NCBI RefSeq assembly: GCF_056746865.1
Contig: NZ_CM163382.1
DNA length: 64,000 bases
Direction: 5' to 3' (one strand)
The translations under genes were made by a program, and so were the position numbers. Below the pieces are notes generated by a model. The model saw only the letters and a program-made list of their open reading frames with translations, had not been told where the DNA came from and ran no database searches. Below are positions 59,242-64,000 of this stretch, one piece after another (the stretch's first letter is position 1; each line of letters starts with the position of its first letter).

Positions 59242-59877
59242 TCAGTGATACTGCAACAACACCTGCGAAATCTTCCTCGCTTCATCAGCAGGATCCGCTG
59301 CATGCGTGATCGCTGATCCCACAATCACCACATCCGGGCCTAACAGCGCATAGTCTTTCACCGTCTGGCTACTGATGCCGCCTGCTACGGCAATCCGTGC
59401 TTTCCGGCGCGCCTTCAGCATTGTTATCAAATCATCAATCGGCTTGCGCCCTGCCGCCTGCTGGTCGGTGCCTGTGTGTACCGCCAGCATATCCGCGCCC
59501 GCCTCTTCCAGGAGGCGGACCCGCGCAGGGAGATCGTCGACGCAGATCATATCCACCACCACCTGCTTTCCAGCCTCCTTCGCCGCACAGATGCATGACT
59601 GGATCGTCAGCAGGTCGGTCACACCTAACACCGTGACATAGTCTGCTCCGGCGTCGAAAAGCAGCTGCGATTCAAAATGGCCGCCATCCATAATTTTCGC
59701 ATCCACCAGTACTTCCTTATGCGGGTATTTCTCTTTAATGACTTTAATCGCGTTCACGCCTTCCCGAATAAGAAAAGGTGTACCCACTTCAATAATATCA
59801 ACGTCGTCAACCACCTTATCGATAAATACCAGCGCTTCAGGCAGGGTTAACTCGTCCAGGGCAAGCTGTAATTTCAT
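59242..59877 (-). CDS. 3-hexulose-6-phosphate synthase / 3-keto-L-gulonate-6-phosphate decarboxylase family (OMP decarboxylase fold)
   Basis: 211-aa ORF MKLQLALDELTLPEALVFIDKV...VDAKIMDGG...; family recognised from sequence pattern. Confidence 0.75.
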   Translation of the reverse strand: MKLQLALDELTLPEALVFIDKVVDDVDIIEVGTPFLIREGVNAIKVIKEKYPHKEVLVDAKIMDGGHFESQLLFDAGADYVTVLGVTDLLTIQSCICAAKEAGKQVVVDMICVDDLPARVRLLEEAGADMLAVHTGTDQQAAGRKPIDDLITMLKARRKARIAVAGGISSQTVKDYALLGPDVVIVGSAITHAADPADEARKISQVLLQYH

Positions 59878-59900
59878 GTTGGTTTCCTTGTGTCGAATGA

Positions 59901-60467
59901 CTATTCGAGGTTGGCGTGTAGCGCAAAACCTTTGGTTAAGCGATATCCCGTCGACTGCGCCAGATTCACAATCATGGCATCGCCCAGCACCATGACCGCC
60001 TCTTCAAACAGGCTGCCGCCGGGCAGAATGCCTTTCACGTTATCGAGTCCATCCGGCAGTTTGTCGGTATAGGCCGGGATCCTGACCACTACCTCCGCCA
60101 GATTCCCCAGCGTGGACTCGGGGAAAATGGTCAGCAAGGCCACAGTGCCACCCAGTTGCTTCGCTTTCGTTGCCACATTCACCAGCGAAGCCGTTTCACC
60201 CGATGCGCTGGCCAGTAACAGCAGGTCGCCATTTTTCAGCGCAGGCGTGACCACATCGCCGACCACATGCACCTTCAGGCCGATATGCATCAGGCGCATC
60301 GCAAAAGCTTTCAGCATTAATAGCGAACGCCCTGCGCCAAAAACAAACACCGTGTTCGCTTCAGCGATGGCCTGCTCCAGACGTGCCAGCGCAGCGCCAT
60401 CAATCCGCGACATCGCCTGATGCAGGTCAGTACAGGCGACACCTGCAACAGATTGCGTTTCCATCAT
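59901..60467 (-). CDS. SIS-domain sugar-phosphate isomerase (6-phospho-3-hexuloisomerase-like)
   Basis: 188-aa ORF with VFVFGAGRS and ASASGET SIS motifs. Confidence 0.75.
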   Translation of the reverse strand: MMETQSVAGVACTDLHQAMSRIDGAALARLEQAIAEANTVFVFGAGRSLLMLKAFAMRLMHIGLKVHVVGDVVTPALKNGDLLLLASASGETASLVNVATKAKQLGGTVALLTIFPESTLGNLAEVVVRIPAYTDKLPDGLDNVKGILPGGSLFEEAVMVLGDAMIVNLAQSTGYRLTKGFALHANLE

Positions 60468-61306: not shown

Positions 61307-62829
61307 TTTGCCTCCTGTGTATACGCGTTAGCTGCGCGGATCGCCTCTTTCAGCCGATCGGATTTCATGCCAAAGACGCTTTGAATGTTGTTCCCGACCT
61401 CGACGACACCCGCCGCACCAAGCTGTTTCAGCAGCGCTTTGTCCACCAGCGACTTATCCGTCACGTCAATGCGCAGACGCGACATGCAGGCTTCGATGCG
61501 GGTCATATTCCCCAGCCCGCCATAGGCCAGAATGATGCCGCTCACCAGGTCGTTCTGTTCGTTTTCCTGCGCCACAGTGCTTTCTTCGACTTCACACCCC
61601 GGCGTCAGCAAATTCCAGCGGCGGATGGCAAAGGTAAACAGGGCGTAGTACACCGCTCCCATCACCAGCCCGACCGGGAACACCATGTACCAGTGAGGCG
61701 CGCGCGGCAGGACGCCAAAGAACAAATAGTCGATAAGCCCGCCGGAGAAAGAGAGCCCGATGTGCACGCTGAACCACTCCATCAGCAGGAACACCAGCCC
61801 CGCCAGGACGGCGTGAATGCCATATAGCACGGGCGCAACAAACAGGAAGGAGAACTCAATCGGCTCGGTGATGCCGCAGACGATGGAGGTGATCGCGCCA
61901 GAGAGCATAATGCCCTTCACCCGCGCTTTGTTTTCCGGGCTGGCGCAGCGGTAGATCGCCACCGCAATCGCCGGAATGCAGAACATCTTGATCGGCGTCA
62001 GCCCGGCCATAAAGGTTCCGGCGGTAATCGGCACCTGATCTTTCAACTGGGCAAAGAAGATAAGCTGGTCGCCATGCACCACCTGCCCGGCTTTGTTCAC
62101 GTACTCGCCAAACTGCAGCCAGAACGTCGGCCACCAGACATGGTTAAGACCAAACGGAATCAGCAGCCGCTCGACAAAACCGAACAGGAAGGCGGACACG
62201 CCCGGCCCCTGCACCGTCATAGTATTCGACAGGCCATTAATCAGATGCTGAACCGGCGGCCAGACCACCGTCATCACCAGCCCGACAAACAGCGCGGCGA
62301 AGGAGGTCACTATCGGCACAAATCGCTTGCCGGAGAAGAACTCCAGCCATGAAGGAAGCTGGATGCGGTAATAGCGTTTATACAGCCAGGCGGCGATAAT
62401 CCCGATAATGATGCCGCCAAACACGCCGGTCTGGAGCGAAGGGATGCCCAGCACCATCGTGTAGTCACGTACCTGCGCCACCGACTCGGGCGTGATCCCC
62501 AGAAACTGGCCGATGGTGACGTTCATAATCAGAAAACCGGCGATCGCCGACAACCCGGCAATCCCCTGATCGTCACTCAGTCCTACCGCCACGCCGACCG
62601 CAAACAGCAGCGGCAGGTTAGCGAAAATCGCACTGCCCGCTTCAGCCATCAGCTTCAGCACGTGAACCAGCCAGTCAGCGCCGAGAAACGGCAGGCTGGC
62701 GACAATATTGGGATCCTGAAAGCTGACGCCGAAGGCCAGCAAAATACCGGCGGCAGGCAGCATGGCAATGGGGATCATTAACGATCGCCCGATGCTTTGT
62801 AACATTTGCAGAAGGTTGAATCTTTTCAT
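61303..62829 (-). CDS. PTS glucose-family EIICB permease
   Basis: 508-aa ORF: polytopic EIIC part and C-terminal EIIB with GNMTRIEACMSRLR cysteine motif. Confidence 0.85.
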   Translation of the reverse strand: MKRFNLLQMLQSIGRSLMIPIAMLPAAGILLAFGVSFQDPNIVASLPFLGADWLVHVLKLMAEAGSAIFANLPLLFAVGVAVGLSDDQGIAGLSAIAGFLIMNVTIGQFLGITPESVAQVRDYTMVLGIPSLQTGVFGGIIIGIIAAWLYKRYYRIQLPSWLEFFSGKRFVPIVTSFAALFVGLVMTVVWPPVQHLINGLSNTMTVQGPGVSAFLFGFVERLLIPFGLNHVWWPTFWLQFGEYVNKAGQVVHGDQLIFFAQLKDQVPITAGTFMAGLTPIKMFCIPAIAVAIYRCASPENKARVKGIMLSGAITSIVCGITEPIEFSFLFVAPVLYGIHAVLAGLVFLLMEWFSVHIGLSFSGGLIDYLFFGVLPRAPHWYMVFPVGLVMGAVYYALFTFAIRRWNLLTPGCEVEESTVAQENEQNDLVSGIILAYGGLGNMTRIEACMSRLRIDVTDKSLVDKALLKQLGAAGVVEVGNNIQSVFGMKSDRLKEAIRAANAYTQEAK

Positions 62830-63051
62830 CTCGATCTCCTGAGCGCGTCTTTATGACAGGGATTCGCACAACAGCAGGTTCTGCTCCGAACACCTTCAGT
62901 ATCCGAACCGGAGATGATTAAAAAAACAGCAACCGACAACGAAAGTTATTTCCGGTTTTCGCTTAAAACCGGAAAATTTATGAGGACAATCACGCCGGAA
63001 ACCGTGAGAAAGGGATAAAAGAGGAAATCGCGTTCGGTGGGAGGCCATCAT

Positions 63052-64000
63052 ATGAGTATCTTCGAGGCGCATTTTCGCAGGCTGCACGCCCGCTACGGCG
63101 CAGGTCAGACGCACGAATTACAGATGCAGGAGATCGCCGCCATCTTCGGCTGTTCAGTGCGTAATTGCCGGATTGCTTTGAAAAAGATGCATCAGGAAAA
63201 ATGGCTCGACTGGCAGCCCCAGCGCGGGCGTGGCAAGCGCTCACGGCTCCACCTGTTAACCTCGCCGGAAAAGCTGTTCAGCCAGAACGTCAATAAGCTA
63301 CTGGAGAAGCAGGATTACGGCAACGTGCTGCGGTTTATCGGCAACGACAAGTATCTGCTGGATCGCCTGAGCCTGTGGCGCTTTGGGGTACAGGATAAAA
63401 GCAGTGAAACGCGGGTGCGCATCCCCTACTATCGCAATCTGGATCCGCTTAACCCGCTCGTCCCCCTGCGGCGGACCGAACGACATCTCCTGCGACAGTG
63501 CCTCAGCGGGCTGACGCGCTATGACGCCGTTCAGGGCAGGATCATCCCCGATATCGCCCACTACTGGACCCACAACGACGACTTTACCCGCTGGGAGTTC
63601 TGGCTGAAATCCACCGCCCGCTTTGCCGATGGCAGCGAACTGAATGCCAGCGCCGTTCAGCGCTGCCTGCTCGCCGCCAGCCAGAGCCCGCAGTTCGCGC
63701 CGCTTTTCAGCCCAATCAAAACCATCACCGCTGACGCCCCCTGGCATCTGGTGATTGAAACGTACCATCCGGTCAGACGGCTCGACTGCCTGCTCGCCAC
63801 TCAGCCGACGATGCTGTTCGATTACCAGCACGGACACATCCGCTGTACCGGCGCTTTCCACCTGCAGGAACACAGTGACAACTTTATGGTTTTGCGGCGC
63901 AATCAACACTGGCACCAGGCGAGGCCCGGACTGGATGAGATCACCATTTTCACCTGGGCTCCGGAGCATATCAGCATGAGCTTTATTCCCCTGCTGCGGG
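63052..64000 (+). CDS. SgrR-family transcriptional regulator (HTH + solute-binding-protein-like domain), 3' end outside window
   Basis: Open frame from ATG 63052 to window end, absent from the ORF track because no stop is reached; MSIFEAHFRRLHARYGAGQTHELQMQEIAAIFGCSVRNCRIALKKMHQEKWLDWQPQRGRGKRSRL matches the SgrR N-terminus pattern. Confidence 0.75.
   Translation, partial: MSIFEAHFRRLHARYGAGQTHELQMQEIAAIFGCSVRNCRIALKKMHQEKWLDWQPQRGRGKRSRLHLLTSPEKLFSQNVNKLLEKQDYGNVLRFIGNDKYLLDRLSLWRFGVQDKSSETRVRIPYYRNLDPLNPLVPLRRTERHLLRQCLSGLTRYDAVQGRIIPDIAHYWTHNDDFTRWEFWLKSTARFADGSELNASAVQRCLLAASQSPQFAPLFSPIKTITADAPWHLVIETYHPVRRLDCLLATQPTMLFDYQHGHIRCTGAFHLQEHSDNFMVLRRNQHWHQARPGLDEITIFTWAPEHISMSFIPLLR

What the first reader, a model, noticed from the sequence alone, without database searches (positions are those of the whole stretch)
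59242..64000. PTS EIICB + cupin isomerase + SIS isomerase + hexulose-6-phosphate-synthase-like operon with divergent SgrR-like regulator
Four co-oriented minus-strand genes with overlapping or adjacent stops and starts encode a glucose-family PTS permease, a cupin-type sugar-phosphate isomerase (TSGHYH motif), a SIS-domain isomerase and an OMP-decarboxylase-fold enzyme. Divergently transcribed is an SgrR-family regulator (partial). This resembles a ribulose-monophosphate-like shunt fed by a PTS sugar and is not part of the K-12 ssrA neighbourhood.
Basis: partly seen in the sequence, partly recalled or inferred. Interest (0 to 1): 0.4.

Follow-up and report, generated by a model that had tools for sequence, protein, structure and literature searches.

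The report
PTS-fed hexulose-phosphate sugar operon
This is a real, intact, horizontally acquired five-gene sugar operon: a glucose-type PTS permease, a cupin phosphoglucose isomerase, two ribulose-monophosphate-pathway enzymes and an SgrR-like regulator. It matches the annotated but physiologically unstudied Salmonella locus STM2755-STM2759, so it is mostly ordinary, although its sugar substrate is still unknown.

Summary
Four co-oriented, translationally coupled minus-strand genes encode:
- a Glc-family PTS EIICB (61303-62829)
- a long-form cupin phosphoglucose isomerase (60464-61306)
- HxlB, 6-phospho-3-hexuloisomerase (59901-60467)
- HxlA, 3-hexulose-6-phosphate synthase (59242-59877)

A divergent SgrR-family paralogue starts at 63052 and is cut by the window end.

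RefSeq already annotates the locus this way. It is present in 133 of 5426 complete E. coli genomes and absent from K-12. It is 93-96% identical in DNA to the Salmonella Typhimurium region holding STM2755-STM2759. All five genes are under purifying selection.

New here: the cupin-PGI + HxlA + HxlB trio sits adjacent in 12 of 12 non-enteric loci sampled (Lactobacillales, Clostridia, Chloroflexota, Actinomycetota). There it is nearly always linked to a sugar transporter (Glc-PTS, or CUT2 ABC plus ROK kinase) and a sugar-type regulator.

Best reading (0.45): hexose to hexose-6-P to F6P to 3-hexulose-6-P to ribulose-5-P + formaldehyde, a reverse RuMP shunt. The substrate and the direction of flux are inferred, not shown. 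I found no functional study. Interest is modest.

The parts
61303..62829 (-). PTS EIICB permease of the glucose family (508 aa, no EIIA domain). First gene of the operon. Orthologue of Salmonella STM2758.
   Evidence: PTS_EIIC + PTS_EIIB domains. TIGR02002 glcB 656 bits, above the 592 cut-off; the E. coli-PtsG model NF008301 scores 466, below its 647 cut-off. GITEPIEF at 319-326 and the EIIB cysteine motif C448-MSRLR. 44% identical to K-12 PtsG, but 50-52% to the trio-linked EIICBA of Aerococcus and a Streptococcaceae MAG, and 84% to L019. AGGAG lies 9 nt upstream of the ATG.
60464..61306 (-). Long-form (280 aa) cupin-type phosphoglucose isomerase. Orthologue of Salmonella STM2757.
   Evidence: Pfam GPI PF06560 248 bits. 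Sequence hits to the P. furiosus and T. litoralis cupin PGI structures. Motif T94-S-G-H97-Y-H99-x11-E111-L-Y113 and P156-P-x3-H161-x3-N165; these are conserved in 106/108 and 105/108 long-form relatives. AlphaFold model pLDDT 95.6; the top 12 PDB Foldseek hits are all archaeal cupin PGIs (E 1e-14 to 6e-13), and the next cupins score about 1e-6. The published STM2757 PCR primer maps at 60828-60849 with 1 mismatch.
59901..60467 (-). HxlB-type 6-phospho-3-hexuloisomerase (single SIS domain, 187-188 aa). Orthologue of STM2756.
   Evidence: SIS domain. TIGR03127 RuMP_HxlB 208 bits, above the 160 cut-off; all other SIS families (KpsF, GmhA, GlmS, RpiR-type) are far below their cut-offs. PGAP names it hxlB. 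The start overlaps the cupin stop.
59242..59877 (-). HxlA-type 3-hexulose-6-phosphate synthase (OMP-decarboxylase fold, 211 aa). Orthologue of STM2755.
   Evidence: OMPdecase domain. TIGR03128 RuMP_HxlA 260 bits, above the 200 cut-off; UlaD/KGPDC models score 95-120, below their 250-294 cut-offs. 424 bits and about 96% identity to PDB 3F4W 'putative hexulose 6 phosphate synthase'. At the three positions that separate HPS from KGPDC it has D109/T137/A165, like true HPS (3AJX D/L/A, 9LJ9 D/I/A), not E/R/T.
62830..63051 (.). Divergent control region, 222 bp. It holds a perfect palindrome TTTCCGGTTTT-N5-AAAACCGGAAA (62949-62975) and further CCGGAAA-like half-sites. This is the candidate operator of the SgrR-like regulator.
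   Evidence: Inverted repeat I2, 11/11 complementary. It is invariant in Citrobacter sedlakii, Entomohabitans and Trabulsiella except for the central spacer base, in a region that otherwise varies. No Rfam family, in particular no SgrS-like RNA. The consensus promoter scan found nothing inside this region. Operator function is inferred.
63052..64000 (+). SgrR-family transcription regulator: the N-terminal 316 of 559 codons, cut by the window end. Orthologue of STM2759.
   Evidence: Translation. The full-length gene is in L001 18953-20632. SgrR_N 98 bits + SBP_bac_5. The SgrR equivalog NF010149 scores 237 bits, below its 476 cut-off, but aligns end to end. 27% identical to K-12 SgrR over residues 18-558.

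Best explanation
This is an accessory, horizontally acquired sugar-catabolic operon.

Shown:
- There are five intact genes under purifying selection: a Glc-family PTS EIICB, a cupin phosphoglucose isomerase, HxlB, HxlA and a divergent SgrR-family regulator.
- Each enzyme meets the curated sequence criteria of its family.
- The cPGI-HxlA-HxlB trio is a conserved module across phyla. It was linked to a sugar transporter in ten of the twelve non-enteric loci sampled.

Inferred mechanism:
1. The EIICB has no EIIA domain, so it would use the host's EI, HPr and EIIA-Glc (Crr). It takes up a glucose-like hexose and releases hexose-6-phosphate.
2. The cupin isomerase converts it (G6P) to fructose-6-P.
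3. HxlB moves the carbonyl to C3, giving D-arabino-3-hexulose-6-P.
4. HxlA cleaves this by retro-aldol reaction into ribulose-5-P, which enters the pentose-phosphate pathway, plus formaldehyde. The host's glutathione-dependent FrmAB would remove the formaldehyde.

This is a 'reverse RuMP' hexose-to-pentose shunt of the kind known in archaea. The SgrR-like protein, through its solute-binding-protein-like domain, would sense a sugar or sugar phosphate. It would then control both divergent promoters via the conserved TTTCCGGTTTT-N5-AAAACCGGAAA palindrome.
For: Family assignments above curated cut-offs:
- HxlA 260/200, HxlB 208/160, glcB-type EIICB 656/592
- Pfam GPI 248/21

HPS-type, not KGPDC-type, discriminator residues D109/T137/A165.

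cPGI metal and catalytic motifs, plus a fold match only to archaeal cPGIs.

Translational coupling of the four genes.

The trio is adjacent in all 12 non-enteric loci examined:
- with a Glc-PTS in Aerococcus, a Streptococcaceae MAG and L019
- with a CUT2 ABC transporter + ROK kinase + RpiR regulator in Anaerolineaceae, Pygmaiobacter and L009

Their HxlA and HxlB also pass the TIGR cut-offs.

In the Anaerolineaceae loci the same cluster also carries a ROK kinase, an ADP-PFK-family kinase and a class II FBP aldolase. That is a complete upper glycolysis in which the cupin enzyme is the PGI step.

Cluster-encoded candidate aldehyde sinks: Fe-ADH in L006 and an aldo-keto reductase in L009. A split transketolase in L009 could take the pentose-P product.

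Regulators throughout are sugar-type (SgrR-like, DeoR, RpiR), never formaldehyde-type.

dN/dS is 0.04-0.25 for all five genes in four comparisons.

From memory, not read here: Hansen et al. 2005 (PMID 15716432, listed) reported G6P/F6P-specific, metal-dependent PGI activity for the recombinant Salmonella enzyme.
Against: - No experiment on the operon was found, so substrate, inducer and direction are all inferred.
- E. coli and Salmonella already have PtsG, Pgi and a full pentose-phosphate pathway. A glucose-to-Ru5P route that releases toxic formaldehyde therefore has no obvious advantage.
- The HPS equilibrium favours condensation, so cleavage needs an efficient formaldehyde sink.
- A dedicated transporter, regulator and isomerase conserved across phyla hints at a specific, possibly non-glucose, sugar.
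- The locus is dispensable: it is deleted in successful monophasic Salmonella clades.
- Recurrent DhaK/DhaL partners (L006, L017) are not explained by the simple scheme.
Confidence: 0.45

Rival explanations
1. The chemistry is the same but the sugar is different. The operon is dedicated to a rarer hexose, or a hexitol-derived sugar phosphate, whose 6-phosphate is not G6P. Candidates include allose, altrose or psicose-type sugars, which share the C4/C5 configuration and would also end in Ru5P + formaldehyde. In this reading the cupin, SIS and HPS-like enzymes act on stereoisomers of their textbook substrates. The operon may work together with the co-inherited convergent operon at 54781-57674 (Gut-family PTS + Gfo/Idh/MocA dehydrogenase).
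For: - A dedicated transporter, a dedicated isomerase and a dedicated regulator are kept together across phyla in hosts that surely have ordinary glucose uptake and Pgi.
- Trio-linked PTS permeases resemble each other (50-52%) more than the E. coli one resembles K-12 PtsG (44%).
- The ROK kinases in the ABC versions fall below the glucokinase cut-off (195 < 260) and also hit allose kinase.
- The Gut-PTS/oxidoreductase operon is present in the same number (133) of E. coli genomes. It is adjacent in Salmonella and Citrobacter even though the gene between the two operons differs.
- L009 adds an AP_endonuc_2 isomerase/epimerase-type gene, PfkB and GatZ/KbaZ-like genes.
Against: - HxlA, HxlB and the EIICB all pass equivalog cut-offs built on canonical enzymes.
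- All cPGI catalytic residues are invariant.
- By recollection, the Salmonella cPGI was specific for G6P/F6P in vitro.
- The Gut-type operon is absent next to the cassette in Trabulsiella and in all non-enteric loci.
- The two operons differ in GC content, about 0.62 against about 0.55.
Confidence: 0.3
2. The module runs in the forward RuMP direction. HxlA fixes formaldehyde onto Ru5P, HxlB makes F6P and the cupin PGI makes G6P. Host Zwf and Gnd then regenerate Ru5P. This is the dissimilatory RuMP cycle, whose specific enzymes are exactly HPS, PHI and PGI. The PTS sugar merely primes the acceptor pool. The operon would be a formaldehyde detoxification or oxidation device.
For: - HPS thermodynamics favour condensation (established knowledge).
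- In non-methylotrophic bacteria the only characterised role of hxlAB is formaldehyde detoxification (B. subtilis; review PMC4776306).
- A PGI is the third enzyme of the cyclic oxidative RuMP route, which would explain why a PGI travels with HxlAB.
Against: - No formaldehyde-type regulator (HxlR or FrmR family) is present at any of the loci. All regulators are sugar-type, and the trio is linked to sugar transporters and kinases.
- E. coli and Salmonella already have FrmRAB.
- Nothing in the locus generates formaldehyde.
Confidence: 0.13
3. The locus is silent or decaying island cargo with no current function in E. coli. It was carried along with the ssrA-linked, P4-like, defence-rich island.
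For: - It sits in a mosaic island among anti-phage genes and IS remnants.
- It is present in only 2.5% of complete E. coli genomes.
- It is lost without apparent cost in epidemic Salmonella 4,[5],12:i:- clades.
Against: - All ORFs are intact, and 131 of 133 copies are at least 99% identical.
- dN/dS is 0.04-0.25 across four genera or lineages, including a copy with dS around 2.
- The operator palindrome is conserved.
- Transcripts were detectable by qPCR in Salmonella (PMC12521295).
Confidence: 0.07

Closest known systems
Salmonella enterica Typhimurium LT2 STM2755-STM2759 (hxlA, hxlB, cupin PGI, ptsG-like, SgrR-like), near fljAB
   Same: Same five genes in the same order and orientation. 93-96% DNA identity over window 54796-64797, including the neighbouring Gut-type PTS/oxidoreductase operon and the DUF3883 gene. 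HPS is about 96% identical to PDB 3F4W. The STM2757 primer maps in the cupin gene.
   Different: Salmonella has an insertion of about 143 bp between the ptsG-like and cupin genes, where E. coli has a 4-nt overlap. In E. coli the region lies in an ssrA-linked island. Neither copy has a known physiological substrate.
Bacillus subtilis hxlAB (HxlR-activated, formaldehyde-inducible RuMP detoxification)
   Same: HxlA and HxlB belong to the same equivalog families and are adjacent and co-transcribed.
   Different: There is no HxlR and no link to formaldehyde sensing. Here the pair is fused into an operon with a PTS permease and a cupin PGI under an SgrR-family regulator, which suggests a sugar-driven role rather than a formaldehyde-driven one.
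Archaeal reverse RuMP pathway (Hps-Phi of Thermococcus and Methanocaldococcus) and the Thermococcales modified glycolysis with cupin PGI and ADP-dependent kinases
   Same: Same proposed chemistry: F6P to 3-hexulose-6-P to Ru5P + formaldehyde. It uses the same unusual cupin PGI family. The Anaerolineaceae relatives even carry an ADP_PFK_GK-family gene in the cluster. PDB 9LJ9 (fused HPS-PHI) scores 137 bits.
   Different: The genes are separate rather than fused. The cupin PGI is a 280-aa long form, against 190 aa in archaea. The pathway is fed by a PTS. The host has a complete pentose-phosphate pathway, so the route is not needed for pentose biosynthesis.
E. coli SgrR-SgrS/SgrT-PtsG glucose-phosphate stress circuit
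   Same: The regulator has the same SgrR_N + SBP_bac_5 architecture. It is transcribed divergently from its presumed target and is functionally tied to a PtsG-like permease.
   Different: Only 27% identity, and below the SgrR equivalog cut-off. The divergent partner is a protein-coding catabolic operon, not an sRNA; no Rfam hit.
E. coli ula/sgb operons (UlaD/SgbH 3-keto-L-gulonate-6-P decarboxylase)
   Same: Same OMP-decarboxylase suprafamily fold, in a PTS-linked sugar operon.
   Different: Scores for the KGPDC models are far below their cut-offs. The three specificity positions are HPS-type (D/T/A, not E/R/T).

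Membership tests
3-hexulose-6-phosphate synthase (HxlA/Hps, EC 4.1.2.43) | Score above the curated equivalog cut-off of TIGR03128, and better than the sister KGPDC models | tested here: met
   260 bits against a cut-off of 200. UlaD/KGPDC models score 95-120 against cut-offs of 250-294.
3-hexulose-6-phosphate synthase (HxlA/Hps, EC 4.1.2.43) | HPS-type residues at the positions that distinguish HPS from KGPDC (UlaD E112, R139, T169), with the Mg/catalytic E, D, K, D, H retained | tested here: met
   D109/T137/A165, against D/L/A in M. 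gastri HPS, D/I/A in 9LJ9 and E/R/T in KGPDC. E30, D59, K61, D64 and H134 are present. The identity of the discriminating positions is from memory of the Gerlt-lab KGPDC/HPS work.
3-hexulose-6-phosphate synthase (HxlA/Hps, EC 4.1.2.43) | Catalyses Ru5P + HCHO <-> D-arabino-3-hexulose-6-P | not testable with these tools
   The 96%-identical Salmonella protein has only a structural-genomics structure, labelled 'putative' (3F4W).
6-phospho-3-hexuloisomerase (HxlB/Phi, EC 5.3.1.27) | Single SIS domain of about 180 aa scoring above the TIGR03127 equivalog cut-off | tested here: met
   208 bits against a cut-off of 160. Other SIS families score at most 43 bits.
Cupin-type phosphoglucose isomerase (cPGI, Pfam PF06560) | Pfam GPI domain above the gathering score | tested here: met
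   248 bits against 20.7, covering residues 32-214.
Cupin-type phosphoglucose isomerase (cPGI, Pfam PF06560) | Signature motifs TX3PX3GXEX3TXGHXHX6-11EXY and PPX3HX3N (metal ligands His, His, Glu, His). Motifs quoted from memory of Hansen et al. 2005. | tested here: met
   The second motif is exact (156-165). The first is present at 80-113 with Ser in place of the Pro and the maximal 11-residue spacer. All metal ligands are present (H97, H99, E111, H161). The core motifs are in 106/108 and 105/108 relatives.
Cupin-type phosphoglucose isomerase (cPGI, Pfam PF06560) | cPGI fold | tested here: met
   Model pLDDT 95.6. The top 12 Foldseek PDB hits are all P. furiosus or T. litoralis cPGI, TM (target) 0.71-0.74. 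Other cupins are 7 orders of magnitude weaker. About 30 N-terminal and 65 C-terminal residues have no counterpart in the archaeal enzymes.
Cupin-type phosphoglucose isomerase (cPGI, Pfam PF06560) | G6P <-> F6P activity | not testable with these tools
   By recollection this was reported for the Salmonella orthologue (PMID 15716432). The paper is not held in the library.
PTS glucose-family EIICB | EIIC(Glc) + EIIB(Glc) domains, GITE motif and phosphorylatable EIIB cysteine, score above the glcB equivalog cut-off | tested here: met
   (656 against 592). GITEPIEF at 319-326 and C448. No EIIA domain, so dependence on host Crr is inferred. Substrate is not testable.
SgrR (glucose-phosphate stress regulator) proper | Score above the SgrR equivalog cut-off, and a divergent sgrS sRNA | tested here: not met
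   237 bits against a cut-off of 476. 27% identity. No SgrS or any other Rfam family in 53000-64000. It is a member of the SgrR family by architecture (SgrR_N + SBP_bac_5), not SgrR itself.
Formaldehyde-inducible hxlAB-type detoxification operon | An adjacent formaldehyde-responsive regulator (HxlR/MarR-DUF24 or FrmR type) | tested here: not met
   The only regulators at this and the 12 related loci are SgrR-like, DeoR or RpiR.

The most novel reading that the evidence does not exclude
The cupin-PGI + HxlA + HxlB trio is an unrecognised, widely transferred bacterial sugar-catabolic module. It occurs in gut Lactobacillales and Clostridia, Chloroflexota, Actinomycetota and some Enterobacteriaceae.

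In this reading the module breaks down a transported hexose through a 3-hexulose-6-phosphate intermediate, deliberately releasing a C1 unit (formaldehyde). The hexose could be glucose or a sugar not yet identified. This would be a catabolic 'reverse RuMP' route in bacteria. The formaldehyde could be recaptured or reduced by cluster-encoded partners (DhaKL, transketolase, Fe-ADH, aldo-keto reductase).

In enterics it would be governed by a second SgrR-type sensor, whose ligand could illuminate what SgrR-family proteins sense.
Probability: 0.3. Interest if true: 0.6.

Novelty: new member of a known kind. Interest (0 to 1): 0.33.

Why it matters
If the inferred mechanism holds, some E. coli and most S. 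Typhimurium carry a natural HPS/PHI pair. These are the two enzymes that synthetic-methylotrophy projects import into E. coli.

The pair is wired to a PTS permease, which would make a sugar-to-pentose route that generates formaldehyde inside the cell. That would be an unusual metabolic trait for enterics. It could be a niche-specific carbon-source determinant in a gut or host setting.

The SgrR-like regulator offers a second, simpler system for finding the still-unknown ligand class of the SgrR family. It has a protein-coding target operon and a clean palindromic operator.

The practical value is modest. The genes are already annotated, the locus is dispensable in epidemic Salmonella clones, and nothing here contradicts established biochemistry.

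Tried and rejected
**Literature**
- They returned typing and deletion papers on monophasic Salmonella, one qPCR mention and one transcript list that mislabels STM2759 as a peptide transporter. No functional study turned up.
- Hansen et al. 2005 could not be opened by DOI or PMC id, so its content is cited from memory only.

**Assignments rejected**
- KGPDC (UlaD/SgbH) for the OMPdecase-fold gene: rejected on HMM scores and the three specificity residues.
- GmhA, KpsF, GlmS or RpiR-type assignment for the SIS gene: rejected on scores.
- SgrR proper: rejected.
- An SgrS-like sRNA, or any other Rfam family, in 53000-64000: none found.

**Uninformative or misleading results**
- The sigma-70 promoter and intrinsic-terminator scans were uninformative. 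They gave fewer hits than the shuffled controls, no promoter in the intergenic region and no terminator after hxlA.
- Plasmid carriage: the six 'plasmid' hits are one 4.9-Mb E. coli record (evidently a chromosome) and Salmonella IncHI2-type or other records that have captured this chromosomal segment. The operon is not a plasmid trait in E. coli; all 133 copies are chromosomal.
- The BEN2908 'GR 29' cluster (SIS_PHI + glcB-type PTS + RpiR) is a different locus, not this one.

**Not attempted**
- Metagenome-wide counting of trio co-occurrence, because of its cost.

Full report
**1. Observation**

Four minus-strand ORFs lie head to tail:
- 61303-62829 (508 aa)
- 60464-61306 (280 aa)
- 59901-60467 (188 aa)
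- 59242-59877 (211 aa)

The first two junctions are ATGA-type overlaps. The third is a 23-nt spacer with an AAGGA ribosome-binding site. A divergent ORF begins at ATG 63052 and runs off the window.

Profile searches give unambiguous assignments:
- PTS_EIIC + PTS_EIIB, with TIGR02002 'glcB' at 656 bits (cut-off 592)
- Pfam GPI, the cupin phosphoglucose isomerase family, at 248 bits (cut-off 21)
- TIGR03127 HxlB (6-phospho-3-hexuloisomerase) at 208 bits (cut-off 160)
- TIGR03128 HxlA (3-hexulose-6-phosphate synthase) at 260 bits (cut-off 200)

The full-length regulator is 559 aa in strain 118UI and has SgrR_N + SBP_bac_5 domains.

**2. Identity and distribution**

The window is E. coli. The 4.9-kb segment occurs in 133 of 5426 complete E. 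coli genomes. It is always chromosomal, and 131 copies are at least 99% identical. RefSeq already labels it ptsG / glucose-6-phosphate isomerase family / hxlB / hxlA / SgrR family.

It lies in an island downstream of the tmRNA gene (39961-40323). In K-12, the ssrA-to-ileY interval instead holds the CP4-57 prophage and has no such genes.

The locus is the orthologue of Salmonella Typhimurium STM2755-STM2759:
- A published STM2757 PCR primer maps inside the cupin gene with one mismatch.
- A Salmonella paper lists STM2756, STM2757 and STM2758 as hexuloisomerase, G6P isomerase and PTS EIICB.
- The HxlA protein is about 96% identical to PDB 3F4W, 'putative hexulose 6 phosphate synthase'.
- A Salmonella record shows the same gene order at 93-96% DNA identity over window 54796-64797.

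The five-gene cassette is also present elsewhere:
- Citrobacter sedlakii, Entomohabitans and Trabulsiella, at 90-98% protein identity
- one metagenomic contig, in a much more diverged form at 64-84% (L019)

dN/dS is 0.04-0.25 for all five genes in all four comparisons. The genes are therefore maintained by selection and are not decaying cargo.

**3. Tests of the individual assignments**

HxlA versus its sister enzyme 3-keto-L-gulonate-6-P decarboxylase:
- At the three positions that separate the two activities (E112/R139/T169 in UlaD), the protein has D109/T137/A165.
- This is like the solved HPS structures (D/L/A and D/I/A).
- The Mg and catalytic residues are retained.

The cupin protein:
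- It carries T-x-G-H-x-H-x11-E-x-Y and PP-x3-H-x3-N, that is, all four metal ligands.
- These motifs are invariant in about 98% of 108 long-form relatives.
- A high-confidence model (pLDDT 95.6) matches only archaeal cupin PGIs at the top of a PDB fold search.
- At 280 aa it is a distinct 'long form', with N- and C-terminal additions, for which no structure exists.

The permease:
- It has the GITE motif and the EIIB cysteine but no EIIA domain. It presumably uses host Crr; this is inference.

The regulator:
- It is a paralogue of SgrR, not SgrR itself. It scores 237 bits against a cut-off of 476, is 27% identical, and has no SgrS-like RNA nearby.

The intergenic region:
- The 222-bp region contains a perfect 11+11 palindrome, TTTCCGGTTTT-N5-AAAACCGGAAA (62949-62975).
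- It is invariant across four genera except for its central base.
- I take it as the likely operator. This is inference.

**4. Comparative genomics: the most informative new result**

I sampled relatives of the cupin protein at 45-67% identity and read their neighbourhoods. In all 12 non-enteric loci the cupin gene is immediately followed by an HxlA-type and an HxlB-type gene. The two that I tested pass the TIGR cut-offs.

The transporter and regulator vary:
- Aerococcus tenax, a Streptococcaceae MAG and L019 have a glucose-family PTS, with a DeoR regulator in the first two. L019 has an SgrR-like regulator. The contig's GC content is 47% and its source organism is unknown.
- Anaerolineaceae, Pygmaiobacter and another metagenomic contig have a CUT2-type monosaccharide ABC transporter, a ROK kinase and an RpiR regulator.

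Extra partners recur:
- an ADP_PFK_GK-family kinase plus a class II FBP aldolase (L005, L016)
- DhaK/DhaL (L006, L017)
- Fe-ADH (L006)
- aldo-keto reductase, PfkB, GatZ-like and split transketolase genes (L009)

The enteric gene order (cPGI-PHI-HPS) and its HxlA sequence are closest to the Aerococcus version (58% identity, against 35-46% for the others). The trio is therefore a transporter-agnostic functional module. It is tied to sugar uptake and sugar-type regulators, not to formaldehyde sensors.

**5. Mechanism**

The best-supported reading (0.45) is a PTS-fed reverse RuMP shunt:
1. A hexose becomes hexose-6-P through the PTS.
2. Hexose-6-P becomes F6P (cPGI).
3. F6P becomes D-arabino-3-hexulose-6-P (HxlB).
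4. That is cleaved to Ru5P + formaldehyde (HxlA). The host's FrmAB would act as the formaldehyde sink.

The Anaerolineaceae clusters support the cupin enzyme being a genuine PGI. They add a ROK kinase, an ADP-PFK-type kinase and an aldolase, which together make a complete upper glycolysis. By recollection, the Salmonella enzyme showed G6P/F6P-specific activity in vitro (Hansen et al. 2005, not readable here).

Against this reading:
- Enterics gain no obvious benefit from such a route for glucose.
- HPS thermodynamics favour condensation.
- The conservation of a dedicated permease, isomerase and regulator hints at a specific sugar.

Rivals:
- The first rival (0.30) keeps the chemistry but proposes a rarer hexose or a hexitol-derived phosphate. 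It may work with the co-inherited convergent operon at 54781-57674 (Gut-family PTS + Gfo/Idh/MocA oxidoreductase). That operon is present in the same number (133) of E. coli genomes and is adjacent in Salmonella and Citrobacter even though the gene between the two operons differs.
- The forward, formaldehyde-fixing or dissimilatory RuMP reading (0.13) would explain why a PGI travels with HxlAB. It is contradicted by the regulators and transporters.
- Silent cargo (0.07) is contradicted by purifying selection.

**6. Comparison with the known, and novelty**

Every component belongs to a known family, and the locus is already annotated. Its Salmonella orthologue has been in the reference genome for two decades, with one enzyme assayed and one crystallised. 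The E. coli copy is therefore a new member of a known kind.

What is not in the searchable literature:
- any statement of the operon's substrate or physiology (ten searches)
- any recognition that cPGI + HxlA + HxlB form a conserved, transporter-linked module across phyla

That gap is real but modest. I score interest at 0.33.

The most novel reading still open has probability about 0.3. It is that this is a genuine bacterial catabolic route that deliberately releases a C1 unit from a hexose, controlled in enterics by a second SgrR-type sensor.

**7. Limits**

- Substrate, inducer, flux direction, operator function and Crr dependence are all inferences.
- The neighbourhood survey covers 12 non-enteric loci, not a census.
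- The Hansen 2005 results and the KGPDC/HPS discriminator positions are cited from memory.

Noticed in passing
window 54781-57674 (+): A convergent operon encodes a complete glucitol-family PTS (EII-GUT 54781-55302, IIA-gutA about 55321-55673, EIIBC-GUT 55670-56650) plus a Gfo/Idh/MocA oxidoreductase of unknown specificity (56661-57674; best hit IolG at 145 bits, below the 355 cut-off). GC is about 0.62. It is present in the same number (133) of E. coli genomes as the hxl cassette. It is adjacent to the cassette in Salmonella and Citrobacter sedlakii, but not in Trabulsiella. It may be a functional partner.
   Followed up: partly
window 57917-59170 (+): The low-GC (0.37) DUF3883/NOV_C gene wedged between the two sugar operons scores 677 bits to the PADLOC model PD-T4-1, a single-gene anti-phage system. 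The same gene sits at the same place in Salmonella. Citrobacter sedlakii has a HipA_2-like ORF in that slot instead (L002 9194-10078).
   Followed up: partly
window 48825-53786 (+): This is a very low-GC block (0.26-0.30). It holds an MBL-fold LmuA/RTasMBL-like gene (48825-49811), an unassigned 407-aa ORF (49804-51027), and two separate ORFs (51262-52464 and 52503-53786). These two match the N- and C-terminal halves (4-400 and 413-842 of 845) of a HamB Hachiman helicase profile. It could be a split or interrupted Hachiman-like defence system. Salmonella has an AAA ATPase + DUF4435 gene pair in the equivalent slot.
   Followed up: partly
window 42733-43905 (-): This ORF scores 456 bits to the PADLOC model PD-T7-5. 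It is another candidate anti-phage gene in the island just downstream of ssrA (tmRNA at 39961-40323). The island also carries AlpA and a DUF927 primase-like gene, so it looks like a P4-like satellite.
   Followed up: no
L014 11210-11338 (Salmonella), corresponding to window about 61303-61306: Salmonella carries an insertion of about 143 bp between the ptsG-like and cupin genes. E. coli, Citrobacter and Trabulsiella have a 4-nt overlap there. The insertion contains the published STM2757-seqR primer site and looks like a small repeat element. It would uncouple translation of the two genes.
   Followed up: no
L006 10114-12960; L017 11103-12751; L005 10096-13612; L016 12112-15695: Partners of the cPGI-HxlA-HxlB trio recur in distant bacteria and are not explained by the simple shunt. 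DhaK/DhaL appears twice and Fe-ADH once. An ADP_PFK_GK-family kinase, a class II aldolase and an unassigned protein of about 405 aa appear together twice.
   Followed up: partly
E. coli BEN2908 'GR 29' (PMC12928451), not in this window: A different E. coli accessory cluster also pairs a PHI-type SIS protein (39% identical to B. subtilis HxlB) with a glcB-type PTS EIIBC, under an RpiR regulator and without HxlA or the cupin gene. This suggests that PHI-like isomerases are recruited repeatedly to PTS sugar operons.
   Followed up: no
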